Source: Amoebophrya sp. A120
Taxonomy: Eukaryota; Protista; Dinoflagellata
Assembly: GCA_905178155.1 (NCBI GenBank)
Contig: CAJINV010000006.1
Coordinates: 3,160,437 to 3,224,436, forward strand
Direction of reading: 5' to 3'
DNA: 64,000 bases
A program made the position numbers and the translations under genes. Below the pieces are notes generated by a model. It had not been told where the DNA came from, did not search any database, and was given only the letters and a program-made list of their open reading frames with translations. This document shows, piece after piece, positions 1 through 64,000 of this stretch. Each line of letters opens with the position of its first letter. The stretch's first letter is position 1.

Positions 1-3000
1 CTGCTGCTCTAGTACTGCCCGACGGTACACGGTACAGCTACTGGAGCTCGGGCGGTACAACTACTGGCGCACCGACGGGAGGAGTACTATCCGGTGATCA
101 TGTTGCGGACGGTACTACAACTGGTGCAGCTGCTGTGTATTCACCTGGTGATCCAATCGACGAGAAGTGGGTGACACCGGCAAACGTTGACGACGCGACC
201 CTGAAGGTCGACGATGAGGATCCCCGGGCTCTGTTACTACGTGCGAAGGAGGAGGAGAAGCTGAAGGCACAGGAGCGAAAAAGACAAGAGAGAGAAGAAG
301 CGGCGCGAAAAGCTGCACAAAAAGCCGCACAAGAAGAACTGGAAAAAAAGCAGCGAATGCTGAAGTACGAAAGGGAAAAGGAGAGAAAAGAGAAACTGGA
401 GAAACAAGAAAAAGAAGAGCGCGAAAAGAAAATGCTAGAACAGCAAGAGCGGGAAAAGGAGCTGGAGCTGCAACGGGAATTAGAAAGAGAACAGGAGGAG
501 CTGCAGAGGAAGCAGGCTATGCATTTTGCAGAATTATCGTACTAATTAGGAATTATCGCAGGACAAGTTTGCGTGGCAATGGCATGAGAAGTAAACTTTG
601 TCATGCTCCTGAATTGGCTTATGAACATGAAGTGCGTAGGACATTTATCATGCGGTATTGCGATAAAAGTTAGTAGGATACTTTTGCAGTGGATACCAGC
701 GGAGATTGACCTTCAGCAACAGAAGCGCGACGCCATTCGGAGGCAGCTGGAGGAGCAGCAAAAGAAGCGAAAACTGATGACGGAGCGGGAGCAAAGGGAG
801 AATGAGGAGAAAGAGCAAGCGCGCACTGCGATGGAAAGCGCGGCGAAAGAGCGGGCGGAACGGGAAGAGCTATCTGCGAGGTTAATACAACAGGAAAAGG
901 AGCAGGAAAAAGTAGAAAAGCAGAAGCAAAAGGCGACGAAAAAGAGCACTTCAACATCTGCTCACCAGGTGTTGAAAAAAGGACAAGGAGCGGGAACTGC
1001 ATCATCTCGCCAGGAGCTGTTGAAGAAGGGAGTGGAATCTAGTAGCAGCGGTAAACTACACATCAAAAAGGCGGGCAGCAAAGTTGTCGTGTCAGCGACG
1101 ACGACTAGCGGGAGTTCATCTAGTGACCACCAAAATCTTCAAAAGGGAGGACATGATGATGATGATGGTGCACCACCTCTTCACATGGAAAAAAAGAAAC
1201 TCGTGGTCGACAAGAAGGCACTTCCGAAGAAAAAAAAGAAACCCGTGGTCGACAAGAAGTTACTTCCGAATAGTAAAAACAAGGTCAAGAAATCCGTGGT
1301 GGACAAGAAGTTGCTATCCAAGAAGGAAGTGAAGGCTCTCACAGCTGCTGCCAGGAAAAAGGTGCAGGAAGAGAAGAAGACGAAAACCAATGCAGCTTCC
1401 GGGATGAAAAACAAGAAGGGGCAACAGATGCCTGCTGCCTCTACTTCTTCCACGAGCAACCCACAACAAGTTCAACGCACTACCGATCATTCTGGGCTGT
1501 CGGACATAGGAGCGCCACCTCCATCTTCGGAGAATAGAGGAGAAGGAAAGCGAAAGCAGCAGCAGCGGCAAAATGGCAAGAAGCCGAAAGTTATGAACTG
1601 CAAAAGCATCGTACTAGTACAAATTGCGATTACAAATTTGCTCAGCATGACACATTCAACTTGTAATGCTGTTTTACCTTAGGAAGAAGATTTGTCATGC
1701 ATCATAGCGCTTACTACGAGTGCAATGTTGCTTTTGCAGAGGATAAAAGTCGAACTGCGTCAGGACGGTGTTGAACAGGAGATGAAGCTGCAGGACGAGC
1801 AGGGGCTTCAACAGCTGCAAAATGCCAAAGCGCCACCTCCATCTTCGGAGAATACGAATAGAGGAGAAGGAAATATGCGAATAAAACAGCAGCAGCGGCA
1901 AAATGGCAAGAAGCCGAAAGTCGAAGTACGACGTCAGGAGGAACATCACGACGGGCAGGAGGAGGAGAAAATCGAAATTCAGCTGGAAGAACAAAATAAT
2001 AATGCCACAGCGCTGCAAAGTAGAAAGCAAAAACTTCTGCGCCAGCAGGACCACGAAGAGAAACAGAAAAAGAAAATACAGCAGGAACAACAGAACAAGG
2101 CTAAAACGCTACTTCTCCGTCAGAATCTGAAGGCGCTGCAGCAACGACAGGAACAGGAGCAGCAACTGCGCGAAAAACTTGATGCGGAGCCAGTTTTGAT
2201 GAACCAAGGGATTGCGGGGGCAGCAGCAGCAGCAGGAGCGGAGGCGGGTTATCTGTCTTCTCCTTTTGATATAATTTCCTCTGCACAGGAGCAGGATGAA
2301 AAAGGAGATTCTCATCCGGTGATCAACAACACCTCCCGGGACGAGATGTTGAACACAATCACCCACGACGCTGCTGTTTCGTCAGCTGACCGCGACTCTT
2401 TTCGTTCCAGATCTCGACTTCGTCGTCGTCCGTTAGATCGCCAATTTTCGCGATCCCGGAGCGGACACCGAGGACGGGACGAAAGAGGAAGATCTACTGC
2501 GCATAGGTCTTCGCAGGGTGGTGCCAGCGCGGTGCAAGGAGGGGGGCAGCATTCCCACCGGCCTCGCCTGGGCAGCCGCAGTACCCCAGTTAACCAACTT
2601 TTGGCACCACCCTCGACCACCAGGAGCTGTACCACGACAGGAACAAATACGACACGGAACTACAATCATGGTCTGGCAGAAGGAGCGACAAGTAGCACGA
2701 ACACCACCAGTGGTCTACTCGTTGCGCGACAGCAAGAAGATGATCAGGATCTTTTATTTCAACGGCAGTACTACGAAAATCAACAGCACTACACAAAAAA
2801 CACTGGTGCTGCTCACGGGCACCAGGCAGCAGCTTCGTCATCCTCATTCTCTGTCGGACAACAGGAAGATGAGCCTCTTGACAGCAGTAGACAGAGAGGC
2901 GAAAGTGCAGAGTCATTTTTGGACGAGGAACAGGAACGATACTATGAGGAGCTGAATTTCAACTACGACGCAGCACAGCATGTTGCAGAGAGTCCTCGTC

Positions 3001-3353
3001 GTGCCGGGTCTTTTTTAAATGATCATCATGCTGCTCCTCCTCCTCCCCCGCCCGATAGAAATATTCATCACGCGGATCATGAAACAAGAGCCACTACGTC
3101 TAGAAACAACCACGACACCACCTCCGATCTTCATCTTCCCCGTCACAACTACAGGACCCGCACGGAGTCCTTTGACTCACGACGGCGATCACGGTCGAGA
3201 GTGCGACGAGAAGACATTGATCGGAAAAGCGACAGGCGCGGCTCGGAATTATCCGGCGGAGCAGGATCGCCCACGCCACCTCGTGCAGAGAATGCTGAGG
3301 AGGAAGGAGGAGATCCGATGCTCCGGGCGTTGGGAAACATGTACCGATTTTAG
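1..3353 (+). CDS. Gene 1 (5' end outside window): K/E/Q-rich coiled-coil and low-complexity protein; 2 non-canonical introns
   Basis: Frame open from base 3; ORFs 135/603/1692 share one frame and join after removing the elements at 518 and 1592; stop at 3353. Confidence 0.75.
518..695. mobile_element. Introner family A (degenerate)
   Basis: TATGCATTTTGCA...TTTTGCAGTGGATA; DR degenerate. Confidence 0.75.
1592..1745. mobile_element. Introner family A
   Basis: TATGAACTGCAAAA...TTTTGCAGAGGATA; DR AAAGT; empty paralogous site at ~1915-1925. Confidence 0.95.
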
Positions 3354-4998: not shown

Positions 4999-7900
4999 AT
5001 GATGTTCGCGACCGTAGTACCGGACGCCGAGGGTGTTGCAGATCCTGTGGCACCTACAACTTTTCCCGCCGCTGTTGAGCAAGCCTTTCTAACTTCCGCG
5101 ACAGAGGTCGCTGACCCGTTGCAGCAAGAAGCAGGAATAAATCAACATGAAGAAAACTACAAGTCCGGCTCTGAAACCGAGACAAGACCACGACGACCTT
5201 CTGCTGCTTCAGGTTCTACCAATCCGCCGAAAAAGAAAAAAATCCTTCCCGCGGATGACGCAACCCTGCAGAAGTACGGCACGCCGAGCCTCGCCTCGTT
5301 GAAGAATAAGTTTTCCCTCGGAACAAAATCGTTTTCCTCCACATTATTACTCCCGCCTCACAGCGCCGGTGGAACGTCAAGCCGACTGGACTCTTCCGCC
5401 GTGGCTGGTGAACAGTATTACAACAATAAATTCCGTACCCCCTCCACCGCCGCGCCGCAGAGTGCGGGAGGAGTTTTCAACAACCATCAAAATAACGCAG
5501 CACCTATGTCCACCCGCCCTTCTTCCGCCGCGTTCGAACGACGAATGATGCAAGGACGGCGGATATGAAATGAAAAAGCATCGTACTAGTTGTATATTGC
5601 ATATACAAATTTCCTCAGCATGAGAAACAAAATTTGTAATGCAGGTTTACCTTGAGAAAAAAATTTGTAATGCATGACTGCAATACGAGTACGATAGCGA
5701 TACTGTTGCAGTGCATAACGGAAAAACAAAGACGATCTGCGTTCCGAATACAGCGATTTGTTCACGCGCTTGACGAAAATTGGAGGGAATTTTGACGTAT
5801 CCTGCGCAAAAGTATCATACTCGTACTCATTGCAAATATGCATGGCAAATGTTCTTCTCAAGGTAAAACAGCATTACAAATTGCATTTGTCTTGCTGATT
5901 GCTAATTTGTCATGCAATTTATACTAGTACGACTACGATGCTTTTGCAATTCATATGACGAAAATGTAAGACGGTCGCTAGATCCAGCTGATCATGATGT
6001 TGACGGTTTATTTCACAACTACGGTCGTGGTGGTTTTGACGCAAACCGGAGTCTACAGGAGCGGCAACTACTACACGGGAAGATGATGAACACGACGGGA
6101 GAAGAAGATCATCAAGATCTTGTTTTGAGAAATAAAACCACCAACCGTCGTCCAATCTCCGCGGTGTCGTCCAACCGATCCTCCTTACAGTTCACGACGA
6201 AGATGACATCACGAAACGCAACAGCACAACAACAGCACAACAAAACGGTTTTAAACCTGCCCTTGCCGAATCTGCGGAAAAAGTCGCCCATCCAGAAGTG
6301 GAAGCAGTACCAAATGAACAAAATGGTGAAGGACTTGCGAAAAAACGTGAAGGAGCTAGAACGCCGGTCCTCCGAGAAGAAAAAGCGGCACCGCGAGCGG
6401 GCCGCGGTCGTATGCATTGCAAACACTAGTAGAAGTAATCGCATGACAAATTTCCGTAGCATGCGAAATGGAATTATTTGTAATGGGGATGCAACTAAAG
6501 AAAGAGGTTTGTAATGCATGACTGCGATTACTGCTACTAGTCCGACACTTTTGCAATGCATAGGTCGGGGACTACGACTACTCCGACACGGAGGAAGAAT
6601 ATGAAAGTGCACAACTCCCCCTCATACTCATTTGTGTTGCATGGGCAGCAATACAACCGTCAGCAGGAATGCAGGTTTTGCATGACAAATCTGCACAGGT
6701 GGATTGTAGTGCTAGTATTACTTGGGGTCGTGCCAGAACTTGTCATGCATAATAGTGACCGGAGCGTAAATTTGGAATTGGTGTTTTGCATGAGAAATGA
6801 GAACGAGGAGGACTTGTGCACTCTCATAAGGAAAATCATGAGGAGGGACCCAAATCCGCCAGGACGCCGGTGGAGAAGTTGAAAAAGCGTTTAGATCGGC
6901 AATTTTTTCGGGACCAGGACGATTTCGAAGCGGAGATACGGATTGCAAAAATGTCTGGGTTTGGAAAAATGCCAGGTTTGGCATGCTCTGCTAGCATGAC
7001 TGTCAAGTCTGTCACGCAAGGTGCCCAAAAGCGCCACTTTTGTGTCATGCAAAAACCCAGTTTCTCATGCAGAATAGGCAACACCTAGCGACTCAAAAAC
7101 CTGTCATGCTGAGCCGTCATTTCTGGCGTTGTCTTGATTCACCAACCAGCATCACAAGTTTCCAGACCCAGACATTTTTGCAGTTGATAGGAGATTTACG
7201 AAGACAACGGCTTTCTGGCCGACGAGAACTTTTCTCACCACCTTCATGGTGCGGCGGATAAGAACAACCTCCAGGGCGTTTCGAAACAGTTGAGTTACGA
7301 CGACGGCATATGGGAGTGTCAGGATTGATGAAACCGACAAAGTTGGAATTAGTTTGTCACGTAAAATGCGAGGCACAAGGTGCCTGCCTTGCGAGGATGG
7401 CAAGTGAGGCTGTTTGTCAGCCTGTTTAGGCGGGTAGAGTAGAGCTGCCAAGGATCATGACAAACGCAGTCTTCTTTGCCCCAAACAGCATGACAGATTG
7501 CGTTTCGATGTAGTAGCCGAAATTTGTCATGCGCCGCTTCGTAATTGGGGGTCCAAGTGGTATCCATTTTATGCATGACAAACTAATTTCAACTTTGACG
7601 ATTTCGGTCCTGACACTCCCATACGGCACGTCCTCTGCCGGGTTCTCCACCTCGCGCCCAACGTCCGCCACGACAAATCAAAATACTGCCTCTCGGTATC
7701 CCACGAAAAAACTGCTTCACTGTGATGATCTTGCAAGATCTGCATCACAAGTTTGTTGCCCATGACACAGAAAATTTGCCATGCGCGCTTCCAAAGGGAA
7801 AACACCGCTAAAGAGTCGAGGTCTTGCAGGTGTGGCAAGACAAATAGTTCTGTCTTCCATTCTATGCATCACAAGTTCACTGTGAAACAGTTTTTTCTTG

Positions 7901-10900
7901 CGATACTCGGCCGGTGTCCTCCAATGTGAATTTCGGCGGTGCTCCTGGAACGAGACCACCCTCGGCCACCACCGGTGGGTATCCTGTGCAAAAGTATCGC
8001 ACTCCCTCGTATAAATGCAAATGTATAGAAGGAGAAACGGTGATCATCCGACATGATCATGGACCGAAGAAAAATCGCAGCGTGCCCTCGTGGAAAGGGT
8101 GTTTTTTTTACGGACCGCAGAAATGACACAGCTTTTCCCAGGGTGTGGCAGTGTTTATTGCGCACATTATGCGAGCAGTGCTGAAGCTGAGAAAGGCCGA
8201 CAATGGGCGGGCGCTTTTGTGACCACAGGCGCTTTGTTTTCATTGTTGTTGGACGCATGAAACCACTCCACCTACATGGACACGAGCGCCCACGCGTTTG
8301 GTTCGTCGAGCGCTCTGATCTCGGCCGGAGCGCGACGCTTGACGAGGGTCGGGCCCATAGCGTAAAGCAGGCGCGTTTGGACTGTCATCCCCCGCGTGGT
8401 GCGCGCCCAGCTTCGTGCCCCGGCCTTGCCCGCCTCCCTGCCGCGAAGGCGTCGAGGCATCGACGGGCCGGGGGCCCGGCTCATTCAAATCCAGTGGTGG
8501 CTGCCTTTTGCGTGCCGCCATCGCCCACTACATTTCGGGCAGCAAAAAAATACACGGGCGCCGGCGGAGAAACGGCGCCGCTACTTACTTGCAAAAAGCA
8601 ACGGAGGCCATGCCGTCGGTGCTGAATTTGCACCGATGGCACGACGCAGTTTGGTGAAGAGAAAGAACGCGGCGCGACTTTCGCGCCCCCGCTTCAGCAT
8701 GTTGAAGACGATGAAGCACCTTGCTGCGCGGCCGCGGCAGCTGCGGCGTCTCTCTCATAGTCGGCGCAGGCAGGGACCGCGATAGACACTCGCTATGCCA
8801 TCACGCAGGGCCCCGGCCTAGCGCCTGCCAAGAAAGAACAAAAGCAGCGCCGCCGCATATAAATTTCGCCCGGCGACGAAGCGCATGCCCCGCCCGGCGC
8901 AGCCGTGGAGCCGGCTCACCTGAGAAGGGCGCAGAACTCCCAAAGCAGCCACAGCGCTGCACCGCCTCGAGCCTGGCTGCCAGTTCCTGCACCGGCCTCG
9001 GGCCCCTAACTGTGAGCGGCTGCCCCACTTGTAATTGGCAGGCCCAGCCTGGAGCCAGGGCTTCCGGGCCTTCAAGGAACTGGCGCAGAGCATACTATAG
9101 CAAGGCGCTGCTTCTTCATCTTCTTCGACAACGTGCTGCATTTCTCGCAAAGAAACGCGTTGTCGGAAATGAGTGCCGGAAGACTACAGAAAAACAATGA
9201 TAATGAGTGTCGAATCACTGATCATGAAAAAAAAAGACCCTAGTTGAATGCTGATCATCAAATCAAAAAAATCGTTTGATGATCAGCATTGCCACGAGCT
9301 AACAAAGGTGATCATCAAATCAAAAAAGTCGTTTGATGATCAGCATTCAGCTAGGGTCTTTTTGTTTCATGATCAGTGATTCGACTCTCATTTAGATCAG
9401 TGCTTTTCTGTAGTCTTCCGACACTCATTTCCGACAACGCGTTTCTTTGAGAGAAATGCAGCACGTTGTCGAAGAAGATGAAGAAGCAGCGCCATGCTAT
9501 AGTATGCTCTGCGCCAGTTCCTTGAAGGCCCGGAAGCCCTGGCTCCAGGCTGGGCCTGCAAATTACAAGTGGGGCAGCCGCTCACAGTTAGGGCCCGAGG
9601 CCGGTGCAGGAACTGGCAGCCAGGCTCGAGGCGGTGCAGCGCTGTGGCTGCTTTGGGGGTTCTGCGCTCTTCTCAGGTGAGCCGGCTCCGCGGCTGCGCC
9701 GGGCGTGGCATGCGCTTCGTCGCCGGGTGAAGTTTATATATATTTGGCGGCGCTGCTTTTGTTCTCTCTTGGCAGGCGCTAGGCCGGGGCCCTGCGTGAT
9801 GGCATAGCGAGTGTTTATCGCGGTCCGTGCCTGCGCCGACTATGAGAGACTCGCCGCAGGAGCTGCCGCGGCCGCGCAGCAAGGTGCCTCGCCGTCTTCA
9901 TGTTGAAGCCGGGGCGCGAAAGTCGCGCCGCGTTCTTTCTCTTCACCAAACTGCGTCGCGCCGTCGGTGCAAATTAAGAACCGACGGCATGGCCTCCGTT
10001 GCTTGTTGCTAGTACNNNNNNNNNNNNNNNNNNNNNNNNNNNNNNNNNNNNNNNNNNNNNNNNNNNNNNNNNNNNNNNNNNNNNNNNNNNNNNNNNNNNN
10101 NNNNNNNNNNNNNNNCGTCGCCGCCTGTCGTTTCGCCTCTCCTTTCGCCTGTCGTTTCGCCTGTCCTTTCGCCTGTCGTTTCGCCTGTCGTTTCACCTCT
10201 CGCCGCCACCTGTCGCCGTCACCTCTCGCCGTCGCCTCTCGTCTGGGGTATGTGATTACAGAACCCGGAAGTCAAGCAATATAAATATTAATCTTGTTCC
10301 CAAGGTAAATCTGCATTACAAATTTTAGTTCTCATGCTGAGAGTGTAATGCATTATATACGAATGCGATGCTTTTGCAATTCATAGTGGGACGATGAATC
10401 GTCCAATTTCTGCGTTGAGCGCAGCTGCAAAAGGCGGACCATCAACGACGAATAATCGGCCGCTCTCCGCGGTGAGCGCGAAATCAGTGCAATTCAAGGA
10501 CCAGTCGCAAATAACTTTCGGCCACAACATTTCTTCTTCTTCGGGAGAGCAGTTTCTAGAGGGGCCTGGTGGACCACAGCATGACAACTTTATTTCCGAC
10601 CATGAACATGATCCCGCGAACGACGCGAGGCTGCAGAAGCAGTTGAAGAACGAGAAACTGGGGATCAGCGACGCGGGGGGAAAACGCGGTCCGGTCTTGC
10701 TCGGGCTAGCAGAGGCTTTAATTACCTCTGCCGTTACGCCGAACCCCAGCCGCCCGGGGTCGGCGGTTCTTTTCGGAAACGCGAGCTCGATGCATGAACT
10801 GCAAAAGTATCGCACTCGTATAGAATGCATTACAAATTTTCTCCGCATGAGAAACAAAATTTGTCATGCTGATTTACCTTTAAACAAAATATTTGCAATG

Positions 10901-13900
10901 CAAGAATTGCATTTTTTATACGAGTGCGATACTTTTGCACAGGATACGATGCTCGGAAGTGCGATGCTGAGCAAGAGTGAACAATCTTCGAGGTCGCAGT
11001 CAAGGGCACTGTCCTCATCTGTCACTACCTCTTCAACACAGCTGCAGTCCCGTTCCCAATCCCGTATGCTCGTTTCCGCTGCAGTGCACGGTGCTGGTGG
11101 AGGTTCCAAGCACATCGTCGAAAGCAGTCAAGAAATAGAAGCAGACGACCAACACCAGCATTTTGAATCCTCTACCGAAGAGCAAAGCAAAACGCTACTC
11201 ATTGAAGCCTTGGCGAAGGGCAGGGACGTACCGGATGAGGAATATTTGAAGGAGCTGAACTACCTAGACGCCATTCACGCGTTTCCGAGGGGGGAGGGCG
11301 AATTAAGAAGCCGGAATTTGTCGGTTTCCGAGGTGAATTCGAAAACGATCGGCATGGATGAGGGGGTGCGCTTTGGCGATGATGATGAGGATGAGGACGA
11401 TCATTTACAAATCAATTTTGGCCCGCCCTCGTCGGAACTACAAGCAGATCATCTCGCCGAGCAGTCGCTTGCTGCAGGTGAAGACGGGGTGTTTCACCTC
11501 ACGGAAGCGACTGGTGTGAAAGACCACCAACGCGGGGGGACAACGTCGAAAGGCGAGCAGCACGACCTCAGCGACCTTGTATTACAGGAAAAAGCAACAT
11601 GAACATTAACGTTAATACGGAATTTGTGATGCAGGACCGCATCAGATGAAAAGGTGCCTAAATTTGTGTTGCATAGCATGCATGCTAGGAAAAATCTGTC
11701 ATGCATAGCTGCAATCTCTGGGCAAAACCGTCAAGGTTGACACTTTTTTCCTTGATACCTTGTCCTTCAGGACTACAAGCAATCGCTCCACGCACAGTCG
11801 ATGCTCGAAGACCAACCGCCGACGGCGGACAACCACCGCGGGTCCGGCATCTCCGACGTCTCCCTCGCGTTTGCGTATGAGTCCAAGATGGATTTGATGA
11901 GCTCCCCCAACACCTCGAAGAATTTGAAAAAGAAAGGTGGGTCGGCATCGTCGGCAAAAAAACGGAATAAGTCTACTTCGGGCCGCGGAAAAACTACAAG
12001 GGGCAAAAACAGCAGTAGTGGTCAGCAGCAACTCCGCGCCCGGTCCCCGACCGCGACGAATACCATGCACGAGCAGGTGACTTCCCCGATGCACGGGCTG
12101 ACGAAAGAGCAGCAGAAACTGGTAAAACCCGCGGACCCGGGGCAGCTGAAGCGCGTGGCCAACTACATGCGGTTGTTGGAAGATTTGTTCGAAACCACCG
12201 ACCACTTGGACACGTCCCTTTCCAAAACCGCGAACTCGCTGCTGAATTTGAAAAAACGGACCCAGTACGAGCACAAGGCCATGTCGTTACTGCAGAACGA
12301 AATCGAAAAATTGCAAATCGACGGAGGCTATGAATTGCAAGACTATCGTACCACGTAGTGATTGCATGATTTTTGCAAAGTAGCTCAGCATGACAGATGG
12401 AATTTGTCATGCGGATCTACCTTAAGAATGAATGAGACTTTGCATGCATCAACACTGCAATTACTACGAGTATGATACTACTTTTGCAATGCATAGAGGT
12501 TTCGACATGAACCCGAAAACCGTGGATCCGAACGCGAAAAGCTTATCAAAAGGGAACATCCCCGCTCCCCATATCGAAAACGAAATTTGTGATGCTGTAT
12601 TTGAGTACACAAATCGGCTCGTTCACTTCACTTCACTTCATCGGCTCGTAATGCTAGAAGACCAAGAGACGCAGCTGTGGCCTCGTTTGCAGGCAATTTG
12701 TCATGCTGTTTCCCACTTCCAGCTGATCCCTGTCATGCTGAAGATGCAAGGCTTTCCCACGCCAACCAGAACTACAGTCCGCATCTTTTCCCTTCTAGCA
12801 TGACAAAGCTGTGACCACAAATCTGAGTGTCGTCCAGACCGACGGCGGTAGATTCTTCTGGAGGCGGAGGCTAGATTTTCAATAGTGGAGGAAAGATGTC
12901 AGTCTATGTATGAAGCGCTCTCGTTTTCTTTACCCTGATGCGACCCAATAAGGAGAAACTCTCCTCCGTCAGCATGCGAATAGCATTTGGGTGCCCTACT
13001 TTGTGGAAGGCTCTTCTTCATTTTCTAAGCGGCTGGATTTCTTTGGGAATTGCCTTCGCTCATGTAGTGCTAGTGACATCTTTTAGGGGGGTGCCTACCC
13101 TTTTGCATTTTCGATTTTGATTCGTTATTTCTTTTTTTTAGAATGATGATGATACTATTTCTGGTTAGCCCACAAGAACAAGAACAAGAACGTGATCCGC
13201 TCCCGCAGGCAAAAAAAAAAAAATCTGCATCACAAATTTCTAGTTTGAGTACGGGGTGGGGGGATTTTTCATTTTAATAAAGCTCCAAGAAACTCCCCAA
13301 ACCCGCGCCCATGCTGGATGTGTTGACAAGGTTTGAGAATTTGAAGCACAAGCTGAGGAAATCGAATTTAGCAGTGGAGATGGAAAATAACAAGGATGAA
13401 AACAAGAATATTAAATCTGGTGGAGCGAAGATGAACAGCAATCGGACTTCTTCTTCTTCCACACAACAGAATGATCGGACTTTCGAGAATTACCACTCTT
13501 CGTCTGGAGGAATTATAGAGCACAGCAAGTCCCTGTCGTCCACCATAGAGGACGCCAGTGGCGCTGCCGGGTACGGGTTCGGGAAAGTGAAAAACAAACG
13601 CGGGGGCAGCAAAAGTAAAAACCTGCTATCAACTGCAAATATTTTTTGTCTGGATGATCTGGAAGATAGAATGCAAAGCAAGGCTTGTCATGCAACATCC
13701 CGGGAACAAAGAACACAAAGTTCTTGGTCTGTACTCCTGCGCCCACAAGCTGCATCTTCACAGATTGCGCAAGAGCCTCTTGATGCCTAGTATTCGCCCT
13801 CTGCGTTCTCTTTAGAAGTGGACAACTTTTGCCGTCCATCATGCAACACAGATTTTTGTCTACGCCGCACTTAGCATCACAAGTTGCAAGAATGTGGTTC

Positions 13901-15057: not shown

Positions 15058-15165
15058 TAAGTAGTAGAGTTCCCGGCGAAGAAGTTCTCTCTCCCATTAG
15101 GAGAAAGAGATGAATAAATAGCACGACTGATTTTTTATTTGTAAGATCGTTTTCATCTGAAACTG

Positions 15166-17510: not shown

Positions 17511-19058
17511 TTGTAAGATCGTTTTCATCTGAAACTGAAAGTGAGAGTGCAGCTTTGCGAGCGCGTTGGCACTAGGTGCCATAGATATTGTTGTTTAAGA
17601 TTACGCTCTCTGTAGCATAGCTCCTCGTCCGCAATGTTGATCAATTCTACGAACTATAATTTTCCATGTTGTGAGAACATGATCAACATGATATTCTAGT
17701 GAACCACAAAAAAAAAAAGCTCTTACGTCGACGAGGGACCTTCAGCGCCTGCTCGTTCAAGTAGTTCTTCCTCTTTGATTCACCGCAACCAACCTTTATC
17801 GAGACGACTTCACTTTAGCTTTACAGACGTTGACTTTCTCAGCCAAGCAACTTATTGCTTCAGCCTCTGCAGGTGCAGTCTGTTCCTATGTGAAGAAGAC
17901 TGCGATAAATATACATTACAGCAACACCTTGACAGTTAGATTTGATGCAAAAGCAAAGAGCTGTATCGTCAGCTTCTGGATTGCCGAAAAATAAGAACCA
18001 ATTCTTTTGACCCTGAACTTGGCTGTTTTCTTGAACTTCCTTTTCAAAAATACCTCTTCCGCTTTACTTTTTATTTACATCTGAACTTCTGATACTTTCA
18101 ATCTAGTCCGATCATGGCGATAGATTGCTCTGTCTCGAAGTCCTAGCGCATGAGGACCACGACAAGCAACGAGGGGCGTCAACATCTTCAACAACTCATA
18201 TAGCGTCACTATGCCGAGACCTATCATATCTTATCCTCGTCGCTCCGCTTATGAAAAGGCCGACCTTTTTTTATACTTACTTTCTGTTTGTCTGAAACGG
18301 CACGGTATTAACCGCTACGGCCCGCGCTTTATGATGTTAAGGTTAGCCTTATCTTCACTTCTTATGCTCGAACCCGAACGGCATCGATACAGTTACACTT
18401 ACACAACTTTTTACACTCTCCAAATCCAATCAAAACAGATTGTGATTGCCGGTAGAAGTACTATGAGACAGATTGCGGCGGCGGCCGATCGCATCACCAG
18501 GGATGACGAAAAAATGAACTTCAAACTGATAAATTGAGTTTCGCTTTCGTTTCAAATTCAAGGCAAGCTATCTCTCCCGATCATATTCGCTTCGAGTATT
18601 CTTGTTGGTGTCGTGATCGTGTTCATCATCTTCTTCCCGAACAATAAAAGGTGGAATTATAATACCAGCAAGAAGAGGTGCTGACAAGCTTTTGTTTGTT
18701 TCCCTTTTCCCTTTGCGCGAAGCACAAAGTACCATGGGTCGTGGAGGTCCAGCACCAGGTGGTCCACTTTGGGACTACTTTCCAAAACTTTTTTTCCTCT
18801 GAGCGTGGAGCAGGACGAGTGCAATAAAGGAATGAGAGATGATGATGACGACAGCCGGTGGGCTCTACTTTATTTACTAGCTTACTAGATGTACTTAACT
18901 TTGTTCAAAACCGTATTTGTCTCAACGAACATCTGTTGCGGATCGGGATCGGCGAGGAGAAGTTGTGAAGACAATGTCAAGTTCTTCTACTTGAGCTTGA
19001 CTATATGTTTATATCAAGGTGCTTTATAAAATTATTGCGCTTCTGAAATAGCGACATT

Positions 19059-44700: not shown

Positions 44701-47700
44701 CGTGCAGAAGTGCGAATGTTGCTCGGAGTCGCTGAGGAACTTCAAGAGGGAGATATCCTGTGTAAAAACCTGCCCACGACCCAGAGTTGTCATGCAGATG
44801 TACAATTACAGAAGAGAAGACGTTTGTAATGCGCTTGTCCATGACGGGCATTTCCGATCGTGTTTTGGAATCTGTAATGCTGTAAACCGGATGAGAAAAT
44901 GGTTTCCTCATGCGGCTTCCTGTGCTAAACAACACTACACTGCAGATGGAAACTTGTCATGCACAACTCCCAAACCTTGGAGACTTGTGTTGCAGATTTA
45001 CCAACTTCACTCTCGGGTGGGGACGTTTTTACTCAGGATAGGAGAACGGATTGACAGACTACCAGCTAGACGGGGTAACTTTCCCGGGCTGCAAGTACAA
45101 CCGGAGGCCAGAAAGGGTGAGACAAAAGCACATGCTGGAGCTGAAGAAAACTTTCGCGTTGACAGACGAGCAAAATGACCAGTATGAAAGCAGTATGAAC
45201 TGCAAAAGTATCGTATTCGTATAAATGCATTACAAATTTCCTCTGCATGAGAGATAAAATTTGTAATGCGGATTTAGCTTAAGAAAAAGATTTGTAATGC
45301 ATGATTGCAATACGAGCGCGATACTTTTGCACAGGATAAGCGGAGCTTTTCTGCAGGAGTGCACCTGGGCGGAGAACCAGAAATACGACTGGGAGTGTTT
45401 GGAATATGAACTGCAAAAGTATCGTACTGGTAGTAATCGCAATCATGCAATACAAACTTCCATCCCAAGGTAAAACAGCATGACAAATTCCATTTGTCAT
45501 GCTGACCGAATTTGTAATGCGATTTCTTCTAGTACGATGCTTTTGCAATGCATATGGAACACGACAACACAATGTCCACTCTAACCTATGAGGTCATCGG
45601 ATACTACAAGTATTTCAGCAAGAAAGACAAAAGAGAGTTTCCCATGACGCGACTGCGTGTGAAACTCCAGACGGGCAGGACGCACCAGATCCGCGCGCAG
45701 TTGAAATTCTTGCTGGAAGACCTTGCGGCGGACGATAACGCGGGAAAGTTTGCGATGAGCTGGAAAAAACAGTTCTTGAACAAGGTAAAGAGTGAGGAAA
45801 AGGGAAATTCAAATAGTGGCGCATCTAGTGCTGGTGGTGTGGTGAAGAAATTAAACGCAGAAGTTGTACACCAAAAAGCTGATGAGAAAAACAACCCTGA
45901 AGACGAATCTTCTTCGCCATCTGACGACAGAAAAAACATCTTCTCCATGTCTCCCTCATACCCGGTTTGCGGTATTGTGGGGGACTTCTGTTACACGCAC
46001 GGCATTATCAAATGCAAATATGTCTGGATCTGGAATAAACCTGTGATGCTGGCTGGCGAAAAATCCTGAGGACGCCACAAGTATTAGCGGCTCAGCATGA
46101 CAAGTTTCTGATTTGCTAGGTGTTGCGCATTCTGCATGACAAACCGCGTCCCGGCATGGCAGAAAAGTGGGGCTTTTGGGTAACGAGCATGACAGACTTT
46201 GGCGTCATGCTAGCAGAGCATGACAGACCTTCCAGTCTTCCAGACCCAGACATTTTTGCAGTCCATAGTGATTTACAAATTTGACGAGTCGCGCGCAAAG
46301 GACAAACATGACCGGAACGACGCGCTCTTCTGGCAGAATCAGGCGAAGGAGACGTTTACAAGTGCGGAGCAATTGAGCGAATACGAAAGTTGGCAGAAGG
46401 ACGCTTGGCTTTCCGAGTACAACTACGAAGTGCGGAAGAAGCAGGAGAATATCCTCTGCAAAAGTATCGTACTCGTAGTAATTGCAATCGTGCATTACAA
46501 ATTTTTATCTCAAGGTAAATCCGCATGACAAATTTTATTTCTCATGCTGCGGGAATTTGTCATGCATTTCTACGAGTACGATACTTTTGCATTTGATAGA
46601 GAAAACTTTGGAGCAAATCGACTCCGAATTGTTCGGCGAGGATAACAATAACCGGCGTCGGGTCTTCTTACACACCGGGGTGTTAGGCTGGCCAACTCCG
46701 GAGTCGAACAACGTGGAAGTGCAGTGCGTGAAGACCGAGTTACTATGACAGTGCACAACTCCCCCTCGTTCTCATTTCTCATGCAAAAGCCCAAATCAAG
46801 TTGCTTCCCTGCGTCACTATTATGCATGACAGATTCCGGAAGCCCAAACAGTACTACACTAGGCGAATGAATGTGTCATGCACACCTGTGCCGGTGTTTG
46901 TATTGCTGTTCATGCAACACAAATGAGGGCGGGGGGGAGTTGTGTACTCTCATAGTTACCGGTCGAATTGCAGAACGTTTTTTCCAAACTGACCGTCGAT
47001 GAAGAGTTGCAGAATCAACTGAAAAAATGGAAGGAGGAGATGACGGGCGTCAATGTCCGATCCGCCAGGTCGAGCAAGCAGAACGAAAAAACCGCGAAGC
47101 CGCCGACAGAATACCTTTCCACCGAGGGACTGACAACCCATCAACGGATGAAAAAGTGGCTGTATGAGTTCGGGTTGAACCGCAAAACGGAAATCGCCTT
47201 GAACAGCTTCTACCGGAGTAATACGCTTTGCAAAGGTATCGCACTCGTAAGTAAAAATTGCAGTGACCACGCATTACAAATCGCGTGCCTAAAGGTAAAT
47301 CTGCATCACAAAAAGAGAAATTCGATTTTTCATGCTGAGGAAATCATTTGTAATGCGTTCTTGCTACTACACTAGTGGTGCGAAGATGCTTTTGCAATGC
47401 ATAAGGAAAGACGAGAAAAAAATGGACGATTTCATCCGGGAGTGGCACGCGTTTTGTCCGATGGTCAAGGTTGAAACGAGGAAAATGGACGGGGCGAAAT
47501 CTGTGAAACTGAAGTCCGCGGCGGTTCGGGGATTCGAGCCCTGGAAGGAGGACATTGCTGCGAAGAGTAGTACGACGAGCTCGCCCAGTGGCAGTGCGTC
47601 CTCACGACGCCGGGGACAAGAAGTTGTTGAGGGAGATGAAGAGCAGCACGACCGTGCTGGGCGAGGAAGAAGATCTTCGGAGAAACAAGATGAAAGCAGA

Positions 47701-57774: not shown

Positions 57775-60700
57775 ATGGTTGGCACAACTACAACAATATC
57801 CGCCCAGCCCGGCGACGGAAACAAGGAAAGTATTGAAGTGAAATCTGCAAACAAAAGAGCTCCTCCTTCTGTGTCGAAGAAAGTGAAGAACAAGAAGAAG
57901 ATCAAGTGGGAGCAGCACAACATGAAGATGAACAAGGATAATGAAGCCTCTGAAGCTAGCGCTGCTCCTGGTACAACTTCCAATAGCGCGGGTCCTGCCG
58001 CACCGTCGTCCTCTGCCTCCTCTTCCGAGGATGTTGTTTCCTCTTCCGAGGACTTCCACTTCGTCGGAGTGCAGCCAACAGCTACAACGATAGCTGCAGC
58101 AGACCAGCAGCACCAGCACGAAGAAGTAAAAAACGACCAAACTAGTCGTGCTGACCACAACTCTTTCCGCCCGCCCATGAGCAACCAGTTGCACCAAGAC
58201 GTGGTCGACGATGGTACCACGAAAAGCGGTATTTATTGGACCGTCAGCGTTGGGTTAATTCTGCTCCTATCAAATGTAAAAGTGTCTGGGTCTGGAAAGT
58301 TGGAACTTGTGATGCCAGCTTTGGAGTTTAAAAAAATCTGTATTGCATGACCAGCAAGAAGAGCCACATTTGGGCTACGCGAGGAGGGCATTTGTCATGC
58401 GGAAATGGCATCAGGAAGCTTTCCAAAAATCTGTGATGCTGGGTCATGCATTACAAGCATCATGGGTCATGCCAGACAAGCATGACAACCCTTCCGTTCT
58501 TCCAGACCCAGACATTTTTACATTTGATAGCTCCCGCTTTTCCTATACGGGGTGATTCTGTTTGGCGTCAACATGTATCAACTGTAAAAGTGTCTGGGTC
58601 TGGAAGGTTGAAACTTGTGATGCTAACTTTGGACTCTAAAAAATTCTGTATTGCATGACCAGCAAGAGGAGTCCGGTTTGTGCTACGCGTGGAGGGCATT
58701 TGTCATGCGAAATAGGCATCAGGAAGGCCTCTGAAAATCTGTGATGCTAAGGCTTCCATGACAGACATTCTGTGTCATGCAAAAACAGCATAACAAATTT
58801 CGGGTTCTTCCAGACCCAGACATTTTTACATTTGATAACATGCAACGATCCGCGGTTCAGAGTCATGGTACTGATGTGAACGTCCGCGGTAAACCGATGA
58901 ATTATGGGACTCTCAAATGTTACATTCTCAACTGGAACTGTTACATGATTTGTCATGCAAAATTGCCATCAGTATCTGTGTGATAAAGCTGCATCGCATG
59001 ACAAATCCAAATTCTCCCAGCGCCAAAGAGGCGAAGAAACTGCGCCAGATCTGTCATGCAAGACGCGCAGGCCCCCCCTTTCACTTTTGCCATTCTTGCA
59101 TCACAAATTTATGTTGTAACAGTTGAGAGTGTAACAGTTGAGAACGCCATATGAATACGGGCTTTCTTGCAGCGTCTTCCCCGACGGAACGGAAGTTCCT
59201 CGCTCCGACGAAAAGTACCGCTACCACCATTGAGAAGAAAAAGGGGTATGTGGTTCTTGAGGACCACTGGCGGACGACGGGCAAGGGTGAAGCGGCAAGA
59301 GCTGTTGCACATGATGATCACCACGTCGTGTTGCCACGGCAAAAGGAACAAAAGCCCGTCTCGTCCGACGGAAAAAGCGCCCCTGGAGGTGCTGGTCATC
59401 ATGCTGGTCCTGATCATGGCACCGGACGCGGAGCCGAGGAAGATGATTCCGAGTCAGAAGACGTGGCGAAAGAGGACCATGCTTCATCGAAACATTCCGA
59501 CCATGATGATGAAAGGGACGATCATGTTGTTGTCCACCCTCCACGTCCTTCTGCATCGAAGATGAAAACCACGAAAACGACACCCACGATCTCGCAAATT
59601 CCCGGACCGGCACCAGGTTCAGGACCTGCTCCAGCTGCTTCTGCTGCTGTGGAAATCGCGGCCTTGTCTGAGGATGGTGGACAGCAAGACGAAGATCGCG
59701 GGAACTCGAACTCGCCGCAGCCCTCGCCTGGCGAGAATGAGATGAAAGCCGCTTCGACGTTTTTGGAGGAGGAGGAAGGGAGTGATGAAAGTGAAAGTGT
59801 AAGTGAAGCCAGTACTGCTGTCGATGATGGTGCGGGAGACGAAGACCTGATCTATCCAGGAAAAAACACCCATCCCCATCCAATTTGTCATGCAAAACAT
59901 GCATAAAATCCGCCATTTGTTATGCATGCAATGGATGGGGATGGTTGTTTTTTCCTGGATATGATCATGGATGATTACACGACCGGCAAAATGAATTCCA
60001 AGTCCTCCGCAGCTCCGGTTGAAACCGAGGAATTTGAAGATGAAAATCAAAATGACCAGCCCGTGGGCGGTGAAATGCAAATGCAAGACAAGCATGGTGC
60101 TGTCTCTCGGTCTTCGTCTTCGGACGTTGCTTTCACGATGGATTTTCTGGAAGTTGGACAGGGGACTGCTGCTGTTCCACCGCGACCAGTACAAGCAGGA
60201 GTTCCATCTCGTTTCGTCGTGCCGGGTTCACCGCCAGTGTACCCGGCAGTCACTGCGCATGTCCCGCCAGGAGAAACACCACCGGGGCAGGAGCCGTCAC
60301 TACATCATCATACGCCGCCACCTTCTGCTCCTTCTGAGAAGGAGCAGAAGTCCCGCCTGAAAGTCAAAGTCACGGAGAAAGACCTCCAACAACACGCTCC
60401 GTTGCAAGTCGTGTACTACTGCAAATACCGAGACGGGGAAACCGACACCATTGCGGACCGTGCTGCACGCCCGAAAAATGCGGAAGCGCCACAAGCCGAA
60501 ACCGTGGAGGACTATTTGAACAAAGGCAGGTCGGCGATGAGCCCGCGCGCGTCGAAGGAGGAATGTATGAGAAAGTGCACGGGCTACCTAAAATGCGGCG
60601 TCTTTGCGTCGGTACCCTTACCGCAGCCCGACGACTCCGGGAGCACGGTGATGTGCTTTTTCGGGGACAAAACCCACGCGAACACACTCGACGCGGACGC

Positions 60701-61757
60701 TGCAGGGTGGGAAATTTCCTGTGTGGCGGCCTCCGGTACTGGAGAGGGCAGCGGCCTGACCGAGGCGAATTTGAGGAGTCTGGCTGGTGAAGGGGGCGAC
60801 AGCTCCAGGACCTCGGGGAGGAATGCGATGTCTGATGCTGATCGTTATCCCGTGCAAAAACGCTATGACATTGCCTGGCTTGCTCTTTTTTGTCAACTTG
60901 CGAAGGAGAATGGGTCTTCGTACTACAAAAGCAAAACGGCAGCCTTCTACAAATAAACCTGCTGTACATTTTGTCTCTACTTTATTTTTTGCCGCGAGCT
61001 GCGCTACGGCCACAAATGCGAATCAAAAGACAATTTGTATTTCATAGATACCTCGTCCAATTTTGTATAGTGATGGCCTCCTCCTGTATTGCGGACGCGA
61101 GTTGGAATTAAAGATGCTGATAACTCTGACATAAGTGTTTTTGCCTTGCATAGAGCTTCCACGGTGGCTTCAGAGCAGGATCTTGAAGGTGATGATGATC
61201 TTGATGCCCTCGACGAAGCAGATGAGTATGAAGAGGATGCAGGAGCGCATGCTCCTCTCGTTAAGACTCCTGAAGAAAATCAAACGGATGCGCAGCACAC
61301 CAGCTCCGCTGTGGCCGGAGCCGTTGAGCGGCACGACACCTGCCGCGGCTCGCACTGGTGGTCCCGATCGCACTGCGAGTGCTTGATGTACGACGCTGGA
61401 GATTCCCAAGGCTTCGTTCCGGTGAATGTCGCAGAAGGAAACAAGCACGGCCGCGAAACTACCATGTGTGACCGGGACGCGAAAATCGGGTCCGTTTGTG
61501 GCACAGGAATGAAGAGGAACAAAGAGGCTGGCGAGGGGAGGTGTGTCTTCAAATGTGCTTCGCGGCATTGCAAGTGCATCAAACACGGCGACCACACTGA
61601 ATACAAAGACGGGAATGCGAATTGCAAAAACTTATGGACCGCAATTCAAAAGCGCACGGTCGCGTACTGGAACATCAATCGGACTCGGACAGCTAGTGAA
61701 GAATTGGTGCATGATGAGGATGGCCAAGTTTTCGTATTCGAGTTTCCAAAAGCTTAA
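57775..61757 (+). CDS. Gene 7: single-pass membrane protein with acidic low-complexity and Cys-rich (PAN/apple-like) segments
   Basis: Hydrophobic helix IYWTVSVGLILLLPLFLYGVILFGVNM forms only after removing elements; SKEECMRKCTGYLKCGVF..MCFF cysteine spacing. Confidence 0.65.
58268..58529. mobile_element. Introner family C
   Basis: Perfect-looking ~26-bp TIR; DR GCTCC. Confidence 0.94.
58576..58837. mobile_element. Introner family C
   Basis: TIRs; DR ACATG. Confidence 0.94.
58903..59151. mobile_element. Introner family I
   Basis: TATGGGACTCTCAAATGTTACATTCTCAACTG...CAGTTGAGAGTGTAACAGTTGAGAACGCCATA; DR TGAAT. Confidence 0.88.
59853..59961. mobile_element. Minimal 109-bp introner, family J
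   Basis: ~30-bp near-perfect TIR; DR TGATC. Confidence 0.93.
60846..61152. mobile_element. Degenerate introner
   Basis: TATCCCGTGCAAAAACGCTATG...CATAAGTGTTTTTGCCTTGCATA; DR unclear. Confidence 0.55.
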
Positions 61758-61899
61758 GCTTTGGCTTAGTATTTGAGGACCAAAATAACAAAGCCACGAC
61801 GAATCGGATTCATCGTGGCGCAGGCACTGCACGTCAATTCACAGAAGATGCTGAACTACTTACCATGTGAACTGGTGCTTATCTTCATGTCATTAACAT

Positions 61900-64000
61900 T
61901 GTGATGCTTGTTACGTGAGCTTCATCTTGAATTTTTTACATGTGAGAAGTACGCGATCTGCTTTTGCCCAGGATGCAAGAAATGGGACGGTAGGTATTGT
62001 GGTTCCAAAGGAGTTGACGCGACCTGTCGTGCCAAGCCGCCACTCGGGGGCAACGAAATTTGCGTCAAGATGCTATGCAGTGCAACTAGGTCTCGGTCGG
62101 ACGAGGGGTGGAAGAACTTAAGTGAGTATATTACTTGTCTGCAACTTCTCGAAAATCTGTGTTGCATAACCGACAAGAAGAGTGCAGCTTCGTTTGTCAT
62201 GCACAAATGAGTTTCGCAATTTGCTTTTCCTTTTGCAGTACGCAATGTGCATCAGTACGAGAGACGGCCCTCTTCTTGAATGAAGCTTGTCATGCTTGTC
62301 TGGTTGTAATTCAAATCTCTGCAACATCACGAGTTCTTTCCAGACCCAGACGTATTTGCAGTGGATAGGCCCTCAATGCTGTCGATTCAGTCAACCCATT
62401 CGCCGCGATCCCTCCTCCGAATTTGAATGTCTATCCGCCAGAAAAGCACAGCCATACCTGAAAAAGAAACGAATTTGCGTTGCGGGGGGTTTTAGCTAAT
62501 GCTCAGCATGACAAACTGAAACTTTTTTGGTTGTATGTAGTTCTAGAAGTAGTCCTAGACCTCATGACCCAGGAAGACTACGACTCGGTTCTGCATGACA
62601 GAAAATAAATTTCTCTGTCTCTAGTGGTGTGGTCTGGTCTCCGCTTTCGCAGAGTGGCGCCAAGAATTTGCTAGCACCGCAACTTCATTTCCTTCCTGGT
62701 ATAAGTATGGCTGTATTTTTTTGTCGGATAATCCTCTCGACCCAGTCAAGCGTTCTGTGCAAGGCGCTGTGGTGGGACAGGAAATGGGCCAGGATGCGCA
62801 GGATGAGTTTCTGCAGTTGGCTGCCCTGGTATGCAATGCAAGTACACAACACGACACTTCTCCCCCGTAGTTCCCGAGATTGTATTGCAGACGAAGCACC
62901 ATCGAGAGAAAAAAAATGGCTCTCCTCAGCAGGATTGGGTGACGAGATTTACAACAACAAGGCATATTAGGTCATCAAGACGGTAGTAGCCAATTTCGAT
63001 TCGCTCTGAGTACCAGCTGCTTCGTGTTTACGTACAGAAGCGGCACCCACAGCGAAGCAATTCCATTCATGTGTATGAAGACATCAAACTCACAGTGGTC
63101 ATCTTCTACGCGGTGGTGTAGTACTCAGTTGCATTGCATACCCGGATTCCACCCAATTGGTTAAAATCGCGGGGCAAAAGAGCGGACAAGAACTGTACTT
63201 CGACGACGCACTAAACCGGGTGCAGCACGCCGTAAACATTGGGTATCTGCAGCGGTTGCAGAACTACCTCTACGTGCCTCTTCGCGGATGGATCATTGCC
63301 GAGGGATTCTTACCGCCCAAACTGGTGCAAGTTCTCAACCTGGCAGTTGAGGGTGCCATGACGTACATCGCCGTGGTGGCCTACGGCAGTGTGTATCCAA
63401 TGCAAAAGTTGTATGACGCTCGTACTTCTAAATCTAGTACAATATCGTGATGACGCATGACAGATTTTCCTTCTATAGCTGATTCTGCATGACAAACTCC
63501 ATTCTCCCTTCTCACGATGAAATTTGTGGTGCAAAACGTTGCGTACGAGCGCGATTAAGGATGTTTTTGCAATGCATACCCTGCCTGCCATCGCGATTCC
63601 CCTGGCCATTTTTCGCGCTGCCGAGTTCTATTGCTCGAGCCAGGAGGAGGAAAAAGCGAGCACGGAGGAGGGAGAAGACGCTGCAGTCAAGAAGAGCGGC
63701 GGATTGAGCCGGAAGTCGTTCTGTAAACTGCTCAACACAGCCAAAAACAAGTTTCCGGGGACCACCCACGCAGTGTACGGCGTCATGAACGCGCTCAACT
63801 TTCTCCTAAGCATTGCAAAAGTAGCGTACTTCTAGTGGGAATTGCATTACAAATTTTATTATCAGAGCCAAAAATTGAATTTGTACATGCTGATTCAGCT
63901 AGTAAAGTAGATTTGTCATCATGCGGATGCGAGGCTGCAATTACTACGACTGCGATAGTACTTTTGCAGTGCATATCTCCTTACCGGCAGCAACCTCGTG
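61900..64000 (+). CDS. Cys-rich and hydrophobic exons: continuation of gene 7 or a further gene; runs off the window
   Basis: Exon-like segments CFCPGCKKWDGRYC, QCCRFSQP, YLYVPLRGWII..AMTYIAVVAYGSV, IPLAIFRAAEFYC separated by elements. Confidence 0.5.
62074..62367. mobile_element. Introner family C (degenerate)
   Basis: 3' TIR CCAGACCCAGACGTATTTGCAGTGGATA; DR poor. Confidence 0.7.
63394..63578. mobile_element. Introner family A (degenerate)
   Basis: TATCCAATGCAAAA...TTTTGCAATGCATA; DR poor. Confidence 0.7.
63807..63975. mobile_element. Introner family A
   Basis: TAAGCATTGCAAAA...TTTTGCAGTGCATA; DR TCTCC. Confidence 0.88.

What the first reader, a model, noticed from the sequence alone, without database searches (positions are those of the whole stretch)
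518..63975. One internal motif, GCATNACA / TGTNATGC, shared by otherwise dissimilar families
Seen: families A-J differ in TIR and length, yet most copies carry several GCATGACA, GCATTACA or GCATCACA motifs and their reverse complements (for example 1592: GCATGACA, TGTAATGC, TGTCATGC; even the 109-bp 59853 element has TGTCATGC and TGTTATGC). By eye the motif is rare in exons and intergenic DNA. Inference: a binding site for one trans-acting protein (transposase or splicing/excision factor) serving all families, and the best handle for finding the unknown machinery.
Basis: partly seen in the sequence, partly recalled or inferred. Interest (0 to 1): 0.8.

Follow-up and report, generated by a model that had tools for sequence, protein, structure and literature searches.

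The report
Shared binding-site code in mobile introns
Dozens of otherwise unrelated transposon-like inserts in the genes of an Amoebophrya-type protist carry the same 11-base signal at set distances from their ends and often in pairs three DNA turns apart, which likely marks the docking sites of the still unidentified enzyme that would spread these introns.

Summary
Real. GCATNACA occurs 265 times (9.6 expected). 248 copies lie in 91 TAT...ATA elements with 5-bp target duplications that interrupt open frames, the anatomy published for Amoebophrya A120 introners (PMC7789003). Exons hold 2 copies, intergenic DNA 1. The full site is GCA(T/a)B(A/g)(C/g)ARRt, present in 23 of 25 sequence groups. 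New here is its geometry: the first inner copy lies 33-52 bp from the end (136 of 176 ends; 2 closer). Same-direction pairs lie 31-33 bp apart with unconserved spacers (14 of 25 groups; p<0.0005). There is no bias to the transcribed strand. A second assembly repeats this (516 elements). Best reading: repeated subterminal DNA site for the mobilising transposase (0.65), as in Emigrant/Lemi1 or Tn7. Branch-point and RNA-pairing roles are disfavoured; a host DNA-binding factor (0.2) is not excluded. Against: no transposase found, no RNA data, copies also in some GT-AG introns (one is a TIR-less element body). Not in the texts searched, and the scan had not noted it on other DNA.

The parts
1592..1745 (.). 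Group 0 element (about 140-180 bp, 27 copies in the window). Motif at 1645+, 1662-, 1693- (the last two 31 bp apart). TSD AAAGT on both sides.
   Evidence: Empty paralogous site near 1906-1940. Other copies start at 5564, 5798, 6411, 10793, 12329, 14403, 24302, 25366, 27362, 30191, 30897, 31436, 32031, 34648, 35207, 37663, 37920, 45194, 45405, 46450, 47222, 53753, 54857, 55900, 56488, 63807.
58268..58529 (.). Group 1 element (about 250-360 bp, 22 copies). Five exact motif copies; first inner site 41-43 bp from each end; a 31-bp pair.
   Evidence: Other copies start at 6937, 22039, 24765, 25621, 26635, 28469, 29374, 30371, 31122, 31678, 33625, 34004, 37292, 41764, 46006, 48373, 49351, 51014, 55102, 58576, 62074.
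28857..29078 (.). Group 2 element (about 210-285 bp, 8 copies), 3 exact motif copies
   Evidence: Others start at 6600, 14641, 20507, 22715, 43677, 46744, 51805.
42314..42621 (.). Group 3 element (about 305-350 bp, 5 copies), with 32-bp same-direction pairs
   Evidence: Others start at 7309, 20810, 21140, 32620.
44754..45040 (.). Group 4 element (about 280-340 bp, 4 copies). This copy has 5 sites, all antisense to the transcript.
   Evidence: Others start at 26234, 34865, 53973.
7697..7905 (.). Group 5 element (about 200-230 bp, 3 copies)
   Evidence: Others start at 44329, 54497.
11580..11757 (.). Group 6 element (2 copies; the other is 32271-32431)
35521..35675 (.). Group 7 element (2 copies; the other is 25982-26170)
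59853..59961 (.). Shortest element, 109 bp. Two antisense sites 32 bp apart (59886, 59918); perfect TSD.
12544..13279 (.). Longest simple element, 736 bp. Sites 45 and 46 bp from the two ends plus a 32-bp pair; no ORF of note.
518..695 (.). Singleton element with motif (599-). Further singletons with motif start at 13627, 21609, 24525, 29727, 38454, 38781, 39095, 42666, 55405, 58903, 62432, 63394.
60846..61152 (.). Decayed TAT...ATA element with no inner motif copy; the reading frame is still restored by removing it
62830..63140 (.). Element with no exact motif copy (one weak site at +52); the frame is restored by removing it
35780..37227 (+). Predicted GT-AG intron built from a group-0 body that has lost both TIRs but keeps 3 exact motif copies (35792, 35827, 35858). 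It carries a nested 1329-bp TAT...ATA insert (35884-37212) without a full site.
   Evidence: 91% identity to 45220-45311; intron call and open joined frame
27119..27269 (+). Predicted GT-AG intron of the tubulin-tyrosine-ligase gene with one exact motif copy (27182) and no TIR; bounds approximate. Like cases: copies at 20159, 21940, 22633, 25171, 29240, 30734, 61900.
   Evidence: TTL family E=2e-13 for exon 28741-28854
10249..10385 (.). Partial group-0-like element beside the assembly gap, 2 exact copies

Best explanation
The motif is an 11-bp site, GCA(T/a)B(A/g)(C/g)ARRt, repeated 2-6 times in both directions inside short TAT...ATA elements with 5-bp target duplications, at fixed distances from the ends and from each other, and it is likely the subterminal DNA-binding site of the transposase predicted to mobilise all these families. 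Shown: the site, its enrichment, its geometry, its strand symmetry, and insertion with a 5-bp duplication. Inferred mechanism: one transposase subunit sits on the outer ~30 bp (TAT end plus A-rich TIR, where inner copies are excluded). Further subunits bind the inner sites, a pair 31-32 bp apart lying on the same helix face three turns away. Cooperative binding pairs the ends and makes the best-endowed minimal elements the best substrates, which explains why unrelated fillers converge on one grammar. The enzyme is most plausibly an integrase-like DDE protein (TA..TA ends as in IS3EU/GingerRoot; published A120 family 38 has TA/TA ends, a 5-bp TSD and integrase-like fragments); that identity is a guess (about 0.4). 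Removal from RNA would be a separate step that does not need the motif.
For: Enrichment 265 vs 9.6; 248 of 265 in elements. Present in 23 of 25 groups that share no sequence once motif and TIR are masked. Core columns 0.95-0.98 identical to the family majority vs 0.75-0.80 for neighbours in 4 families, 0.82 vs 0.66 in the fifth. In 554 elements, departure from five agreeing relatives is 1.9% at core bases vs 5.0% at other agreeing columns. First inner site 33-52 bp from the end in 136 of 176 ends and at 32 or less in 2 (group-weighted 14.7 vs null 6.1, and 0.19 vs null 7.2). 31-33-bp same-direction pair in 14 of 25 groups, 11.1 vs null 1.5, maximum 6 in 2000, with spacers 28% identical between groups. 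Second assembly: 510 of 516 elements and 42 of 45 groups have the site; pair in 21 of 45 groups (18.5 vs 3.5); 836 of 1020 ends at 33-52, 5 closer. No strand bias: 155 vs 185, p=0.12. TIR bases 3-14 score as a full site in 104 of 1032 ends and other offsets almost never. Empty paralogous sites confirm insertion plus 5 bp. Precedent: Lemi1 proteins bind subterminal repeats of the Emigrant MITE (PMC1636448, passages); Tn7 ends carry arrays of TnsB sites (PMC8649781, passages).
Against: No transposase or integrase family in 130 of the 157 long ORFs of the related loci, nor in 5 shorter ORFs from inserts; none of 7 long TIR pairs is an autonomous element. Farhat et al. found putative transposases only in A25, not A120. 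Some TAT...ATA elements with good TIRs have no exact copy (window 60846, 62830, 30191; L060 873 bp; 20 of 534 in the loci). The site is enriched about fivefold in predicted GT-AG introns without element homology (11 of 30, null 2.1 hits), and core decay (1.9%) is somewhat below half the TSD mismatch rate (6.9%/2); both hint at constraint after insertion. Most TIRs share only the 3' half of the site (median score negative). No binding experiment, no RNA reads.
Confidence: 0.65

Rival explanations
1. A host sequence-specific DNA-binding protein (for example an ApiAP2-type factor or a domesticated transposase) binds the site and would mark these introns on DNA for co-transcriptional removal in a cell reported to lack U1, or acts as an accessory factor of transposition.
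For: The same DNA geometry fits. Copies in 8 of 12 hand-called and 11 of 30 predicted GT-AG introns. Core decay 1.9% vs TSD mismatch 6.9%. No transposase known in A120. The 5' part TGCATG resembles the AP2-EXP site TGCATGCA (PMC6631176, passage).
Against: 19 of 30 predicted GT-AG introns have no site. One motif-bearing GT-AG intron is demonstrably a TIR-less element body. Two elements without inner sites still interrupt open frames. TGCATGCA itself occurs only 4 times in the window. TSD mismatch does not track element divergence, so it is a poor clock.
Confidence: 0.2
2. The motif acts on RNA, as a branch point (its core reads UNAC) or by pairing with its reverse complement to fold the intron.
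For: UNAC resembles the recalled yUnAy branch consensus. 142 of 340 copies pair with another copy in predicted folds; core bases are 77% paired vs 62% for other inner bases.
Against: No sense bias; a sense copy 15-50 nt from the 3' end in 38 of 90 elements vs 38 of 90 on the mirror strand. 7 elements have only antisense and 7 only sense copies, so they cannot pair. N avoids A. Same-direction 31-32-bp spacing has no pairing explanation.
Confidence: 0.07
3. All groups descend from one ancestral element and the motif is an inherited relic with no present binding partner.
For: All groups share TAT ends and an A-rich TIR; clustering can miss old homology (groups merge at lower thresholds).
Against: Spacers are at random identity (28%) while sites and spacing persist; core bases change 2.6 times less than other agreeing columns. 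Common descent may be true but does not explain selective retention.
Confidence: 0.08

Closest known systems
Introner elements of Amoebophrya sp. A120 (Farhat et al. 2021, PMC7789003; sections 10-12 and 16 read whole, supplement legends; Gozashti et al. 2025, PMC12130899, passages and 56 of 58 A120 rows of one dataset)
   Same: IR starts with TAT, then about seven variable bases and an A-run; 5-bp direct repeats; non-canonical borders; insertion in exons; family lengths (107, 149, 160, 209, 234, 256-278, 305-321, 730 bp) match those here.
   Different: The text read describes only IRs and DRs, no shared inner motif or spacing rule. Figures (logos, example element) could not be seen. The window's source was not established.
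Subterminal transposase sites of MITEs and DNA transposons: Emigrant/Lemi1 (PMC1636448, passages), with Sleeping Beauty, pogo, CACTA and hAT named there
   Same: Short repeats inside the ends, in both directions, partly like the TIR, with arrangement mattering.
   Different: Here one site and one spacing rule span dozens of unrelated families that are also introns; binding is not shown and the transposase is unknown.
Tn7-like end arrays (PMC8649781, passages)
   Same: Arrays of repeated sites at both ends of elements moved by an integrase-fold transposase; 5-bp duplication (recalled for Tn7).
   Different: Tn7 sites are about 20 bp and ends are TGT..ACA (recalled); prokaryotic, multi-protein system.
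IS3EU/GingerRoot (PMC10045372, PMC6839031, passages)
   Same: TA..TA termini; integrase-related DDE transposase as candidate partner.
   Different: 6-bp TSD there, 5-bp here; TIRs 100-150 bp there, about 15-30 bp here; no transposase found here.

Membership tests
Amoebophrya A120-type introner | IR beginning TAT, about 7 variable bases, then a run of A | tested here: met
   84 of 91 have TAT..ATA at both ends; logo shows A at positions 11-14 in 70-87%
Amoebophrya A120-type introner | 3-5-bp direct repeat at the borders | tested here: met
   5-bp TSD perfect in 49 of 91 and at most 1 mismatch in 79 of 91; none perfect at 6-9 bp; empty paralogous sites
Amoebophrya A120-type introner | Interrupts coding sequence with mostly non-GT-AG borders | tested here: met
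   Removal restores long frames, e.g. 2076 aa across 16 elements; only 5 of 91 have a GT-AG register
Amoebophrya A120-type introner | Removed from mRNA (RNA-seq junctions) | not testable with these tools
Subterminal transposase-binding repeat | Repeated near both ends with constrained position and more conserved than flanks | tested here: met
Subterminal transposase-binding repeat | Related to part of the TIR | tested here: inconclusive
   104 of 1032 ends score as a full site at one offset only; most share just the RCAAA half
Subterminal transposase-binding repeat | Bound by the cognate transposase; present at ends of the autonomous element | not testable with these tools
   No autonomous element in 64 kb plus 665 kb examined
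IS3EU/GingerRoot | TA..TA termini | tested here: met
IS3EU/GingerRoot | 6-bp TSD | tested here: not met
   0 of 91 perfect at 6 bp vs 49 of 91 at 5 bp
IS3EU/GingerRoot | Integrase-related DDE transposase | tested here: inconclusive
   None found in the ORFs scanned; sample is under 1% of a genome of the published size
Spliceosomal branch point | Sense strand, short distance upstream of the 3' splice site | tested here: not met
   38 vs 38 of 90 in the mirror test; 9 of 90 elements have no sense copy

The most novel reading that the evidence does not exclude
The site is read by a host or domesticated DNA-binding protein that uses the 33-52-bp and 31-32-bp geometry as a ruler to define intron ends on the DNA, replacing U1 recognition: a transposon binding code turned into a splicing code for tens of thousands of non-canonical introns.
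Probability: 0.12. Interest if true: 0.92.

Novelty: new variant of a known kind. Interest (0 to 1): 0.62.

Why it matters
How Amoebophrya introners move and are spliced is stated as open: no transposase found in A120, U1 missing, about 1950 families treated as separate (PMC7789003). A single site with a strict geometry implies that most families share one machine. It gives a bait for pull-down, a signature for finding the autonomous element, and a mutation to separate mobility from splicing. It also shows one route by which such elements can mature into ordinary GT-AG introns (35780-37227).

Tried and rejected
Element set: 99 automatic calls; 18 dropped by eye as false or merged, 10 added by hand, 4 coordinates corrected. 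The automatic calls did not use the motif. Element 35884 was left out of the clustering (90 clustered). Autonomous partner: 7 long TIR pairs in the loci; the four examined (L073, L011, L014, L060) gave no transposase, and the 415-aa ORF inside the 2459-bp L073 element has no Pfam family and only itself as homologue. 27 of 157 long ORFs (mostly low-complexity or antisense shadows) were not scanned. Viral contigs: 0 hits for a group-1 end and 6 for the 31-32-bp pair. The best, L138, is a simple pentamer repeat of the avoided N=A form next to what reads like a phage terminase (my reading, not searched): rejected. Prokaryote genomes: 72 hits vs about 20 by naive chance, many in tandem repeats, none similar to the elements: rejected. 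TSD mismatch as an age clock did not track divergence. No diverged orthologous insertions were found, so selection after insertion is undecided. The GT-AG intron predictor is noisy (bounds wrong for several window introns). No whole genome and no reads were available. Roy et al. 2023 is not held. The motif-string paper search listed 30 of 3,688 papers, none on these elements by title.
Full report
1. Observation. The 8-mer GCATNACA occurs 265 times, 121 on + and 144 on -, against 9.6 in shuffles (maximum 20 of 100). The middle base is G 144, T 64, C 54, A 3. Flanks extend the site to about 11 bp, and variants with A at position 4, G at 6 or G at 7 are common, giving GCA(T/a)B(A/g)(C/g)ARRt. The quoted examples at 1592 and 59853 are correct.

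2. What carries it. A search using only TAT/ATA ends, inverted repeats and flanking duplications gave 99 calls; after dropping 18 and adding 10 by hand, 91 elements remain. 84 of 91 begin TAT and end ATA; a 5-bp duplication is perfect in 49 and has at most one mismatch in 79. Removing each element with one duplication copy restores long + strand frames, e.g. 2076 aa across 16 elements. All 91 lie within my gene bounds; only 5 have a GT-AG register; lengths are spread over all three phases. One host gene is a tubulin-tyrosine ligase. Empty paralogous sites confirm insertion with a 5-bp duplication for window element 1592 and three elements in L004. This is the anatomy published for Amoebophrya A120 introners (PMC7789003); the window's source was not established, and removal from RNA could not be tested.

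3. Enrichment. Of 265 copies, 248 are in elements (11.9 per kb), 5 in partial elements, 8 in 12 hand-called GT-AG introns (4.1 per kb), 2 in exons (0.08), 1 intergenic (0.11), 1 in long GC-rich inserts. With motif and TIR masked, 90 elements fall into 25 groups above the shuffle maximum (8 multi-copy, 17 single), and 23 of 25 carry the motif. Core columns are 0.95-0.98 identical to the family majority vs 0.75-0.80 for neighbours in four families, and 0.82 vs 0.66 in the heterogeneous fifth.

4. The first inner site lies 33-52 bp from the end in 136 of 176 ends and at 32 or less in 2; counted per group, 14.7 vs 6.1 and 0.19 vs 7.2 under random placement. Same-direction pairs 31-33 bp apart occur in 53 of 90 elements and 14 of 25 groups (11.1 vs 1.5; maximum 6 in 2000 permutations). 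Their spacers are 28% identical between groups, so the spacing is kept, not the sequence. 31-32 bp is three turns of B-DNA (established knowledge). Families insert in both directions (16:11, 11:11) and sites show no strand bias (155 vs 185, p=0.12).

5. Replication. A metagenome scan gave 136 loci, 665 kb unique, with the same families at 72-94% identity; the listed loci come from one assembly, and each locus was anchored on a group-1 end holding one motif copy, which biases family sizes. 534 elements were called without the motif: 12.1 copies per kb inside, 1.2 outside; 557 of the 652 outside copies lie in element-like sequence; long coding frames hold 0.065 per kb. Of 516 gap-free elements 510 have an inner site, as do 42 of 45 groups; the 31-33 pair is in 21 of 45 groups (18.5 vs 3.5, maximum 10 of 1000); 836 of 1020 ends have the first site at 33-52 and 5 closer. 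TIR bases 3-14 score as a full site in 104 of 1032 ends, other offsets almost never, but most TIRs share only the 3' half. Among 554 elements, departure from five agreeing relatives is 1.9% at core bases, 3.4% at positions 4, 6 and 7, 6.3% at N and 5.0% at other columns.

6. Results against a transposase-only reading. The site is in 8 of 12 hand-called GT-AG introns and in 11 of 30 predicted ones without element homology (null 2.1 hits, maximum 7); 19 of 30 have none. One case is explained: intron 35780-37227 is a group-0 body, 91% identical to 45220-45311, that lost both TIRs and kept its sites. The others show no significant similarity to elements. Core decay (1.9%) is below half the TSD mismatch (6.9%), but TSD mismatch does not track divergence, and no diverged orthologous insertions were found; constraint after insertion is undecided. 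Elements 60846 and 62830 have no inner site, nor has the 873-bp TAT element in L060 an exact copy. No transposase was found, and Farhat et al. report none in A120.

7. RNA-level roles. A branch-point mirror test gives 38 vs 38 of 90; 142 of 340 copies pair with another copy in predicted folds, but 14 elements have sites in one direction only. Neither role is general.

8. Mechanism. Shown: site, enrichment, geometry, strand symmetry, 5-bp duplication. Inferred: a protein binds double-stranded DNA at these sites, with an end-bound subunit occupying the outer ~30 bp and further subunits three turns apart on one face; the protein is the mobilising transposase (0.65), a host factor (0.2), an RNA-level reader (0.07), or nothing (0.08). 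An integrase-like enzyme is the best guess for the class: IS3EU/GingerRoot have TA..TA ends but 6-bp duplications, and A120 family 38 is listed with '5-bp TSD, TA/TA Termini' and has integrase-like fragments. Whether family 38 carries the motif could not be seen.

9. Novelty. Subterminal transposase sites are known (PMC1636448; PMC8649781), and so are these introners. A shared inner site and spacing rule were not found in the sections and supplement text of PMC7789003 read, in passages and 13 of 14 supplements of PMC12130899, in passages of PMC9860276 and PMC11282704, or in searches. Figures were not visible and Roy et al. 2023 is not held, so a prior mention cannot be excluded. Earlier scan notes held nothing on this motif. 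Verdict: new variant of a known kind, interest 0.62.

Noticed in passing
window 35780-37227: A group-0 element body without TIRs appears to have become a GT-AG intron; its donor GT lies at an internal GTAT of the element. A snapshot of introner-to-canonical-intron conversion.
   Followed up: partly
predicted GT-AG introns, window and loci: 17 of 34 predicted donors start GTAT, as would arise from a G in front of an element's TAT end; the predictor may also have learned this pattern.
   Followed up: no
window 27490-28392, 42812-43490, 35884-37212; L011, L014, L073: GC-rich inserts of 0.5-2.2 kb nested inside introners, lengthening them several-fold; they lack the motif or nearly so.
   Followed up: partly
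window 8586-10014: A 1.4-kb inverted repeat (91% identical arms) beside the N gap; a foldback element or an assembly artefact.
   Followed up: no
window 15132-17547: A 2.4-kb intergenic element with about 45-bp direct repeats at its ends and inner inverted and tandem repeats; part recurs in L075 at 92%. No Pfam family in the two ORFs scanned.
   Followed up: partly
L073 476-2934: A group-1 element with perfect TSD holding a 2.2-kb insert with a 5'-truncated 415-aa ORF of no known family (captured gene fragment or nested element).
   Followed up: partly
window, all genes: All long frames are on the + strand, and none of the 91 elements lies in the 8.7 kb called intergenic, suggesting targeting to or retention in genes.
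   Followed up: no
window TSDs and loci: TSD copies mismatch at 13% (window) and 7% (pooled) of bases while TAT ends differ at under 2%, and mismatch does not track element divergence; TSD changes may be selected for splicing or coding.
   Followed up: partly
window 22715-22998: An element inserted at the acceptor end of a GT-AG intron, its duplication including the AG.
   Followed up: no
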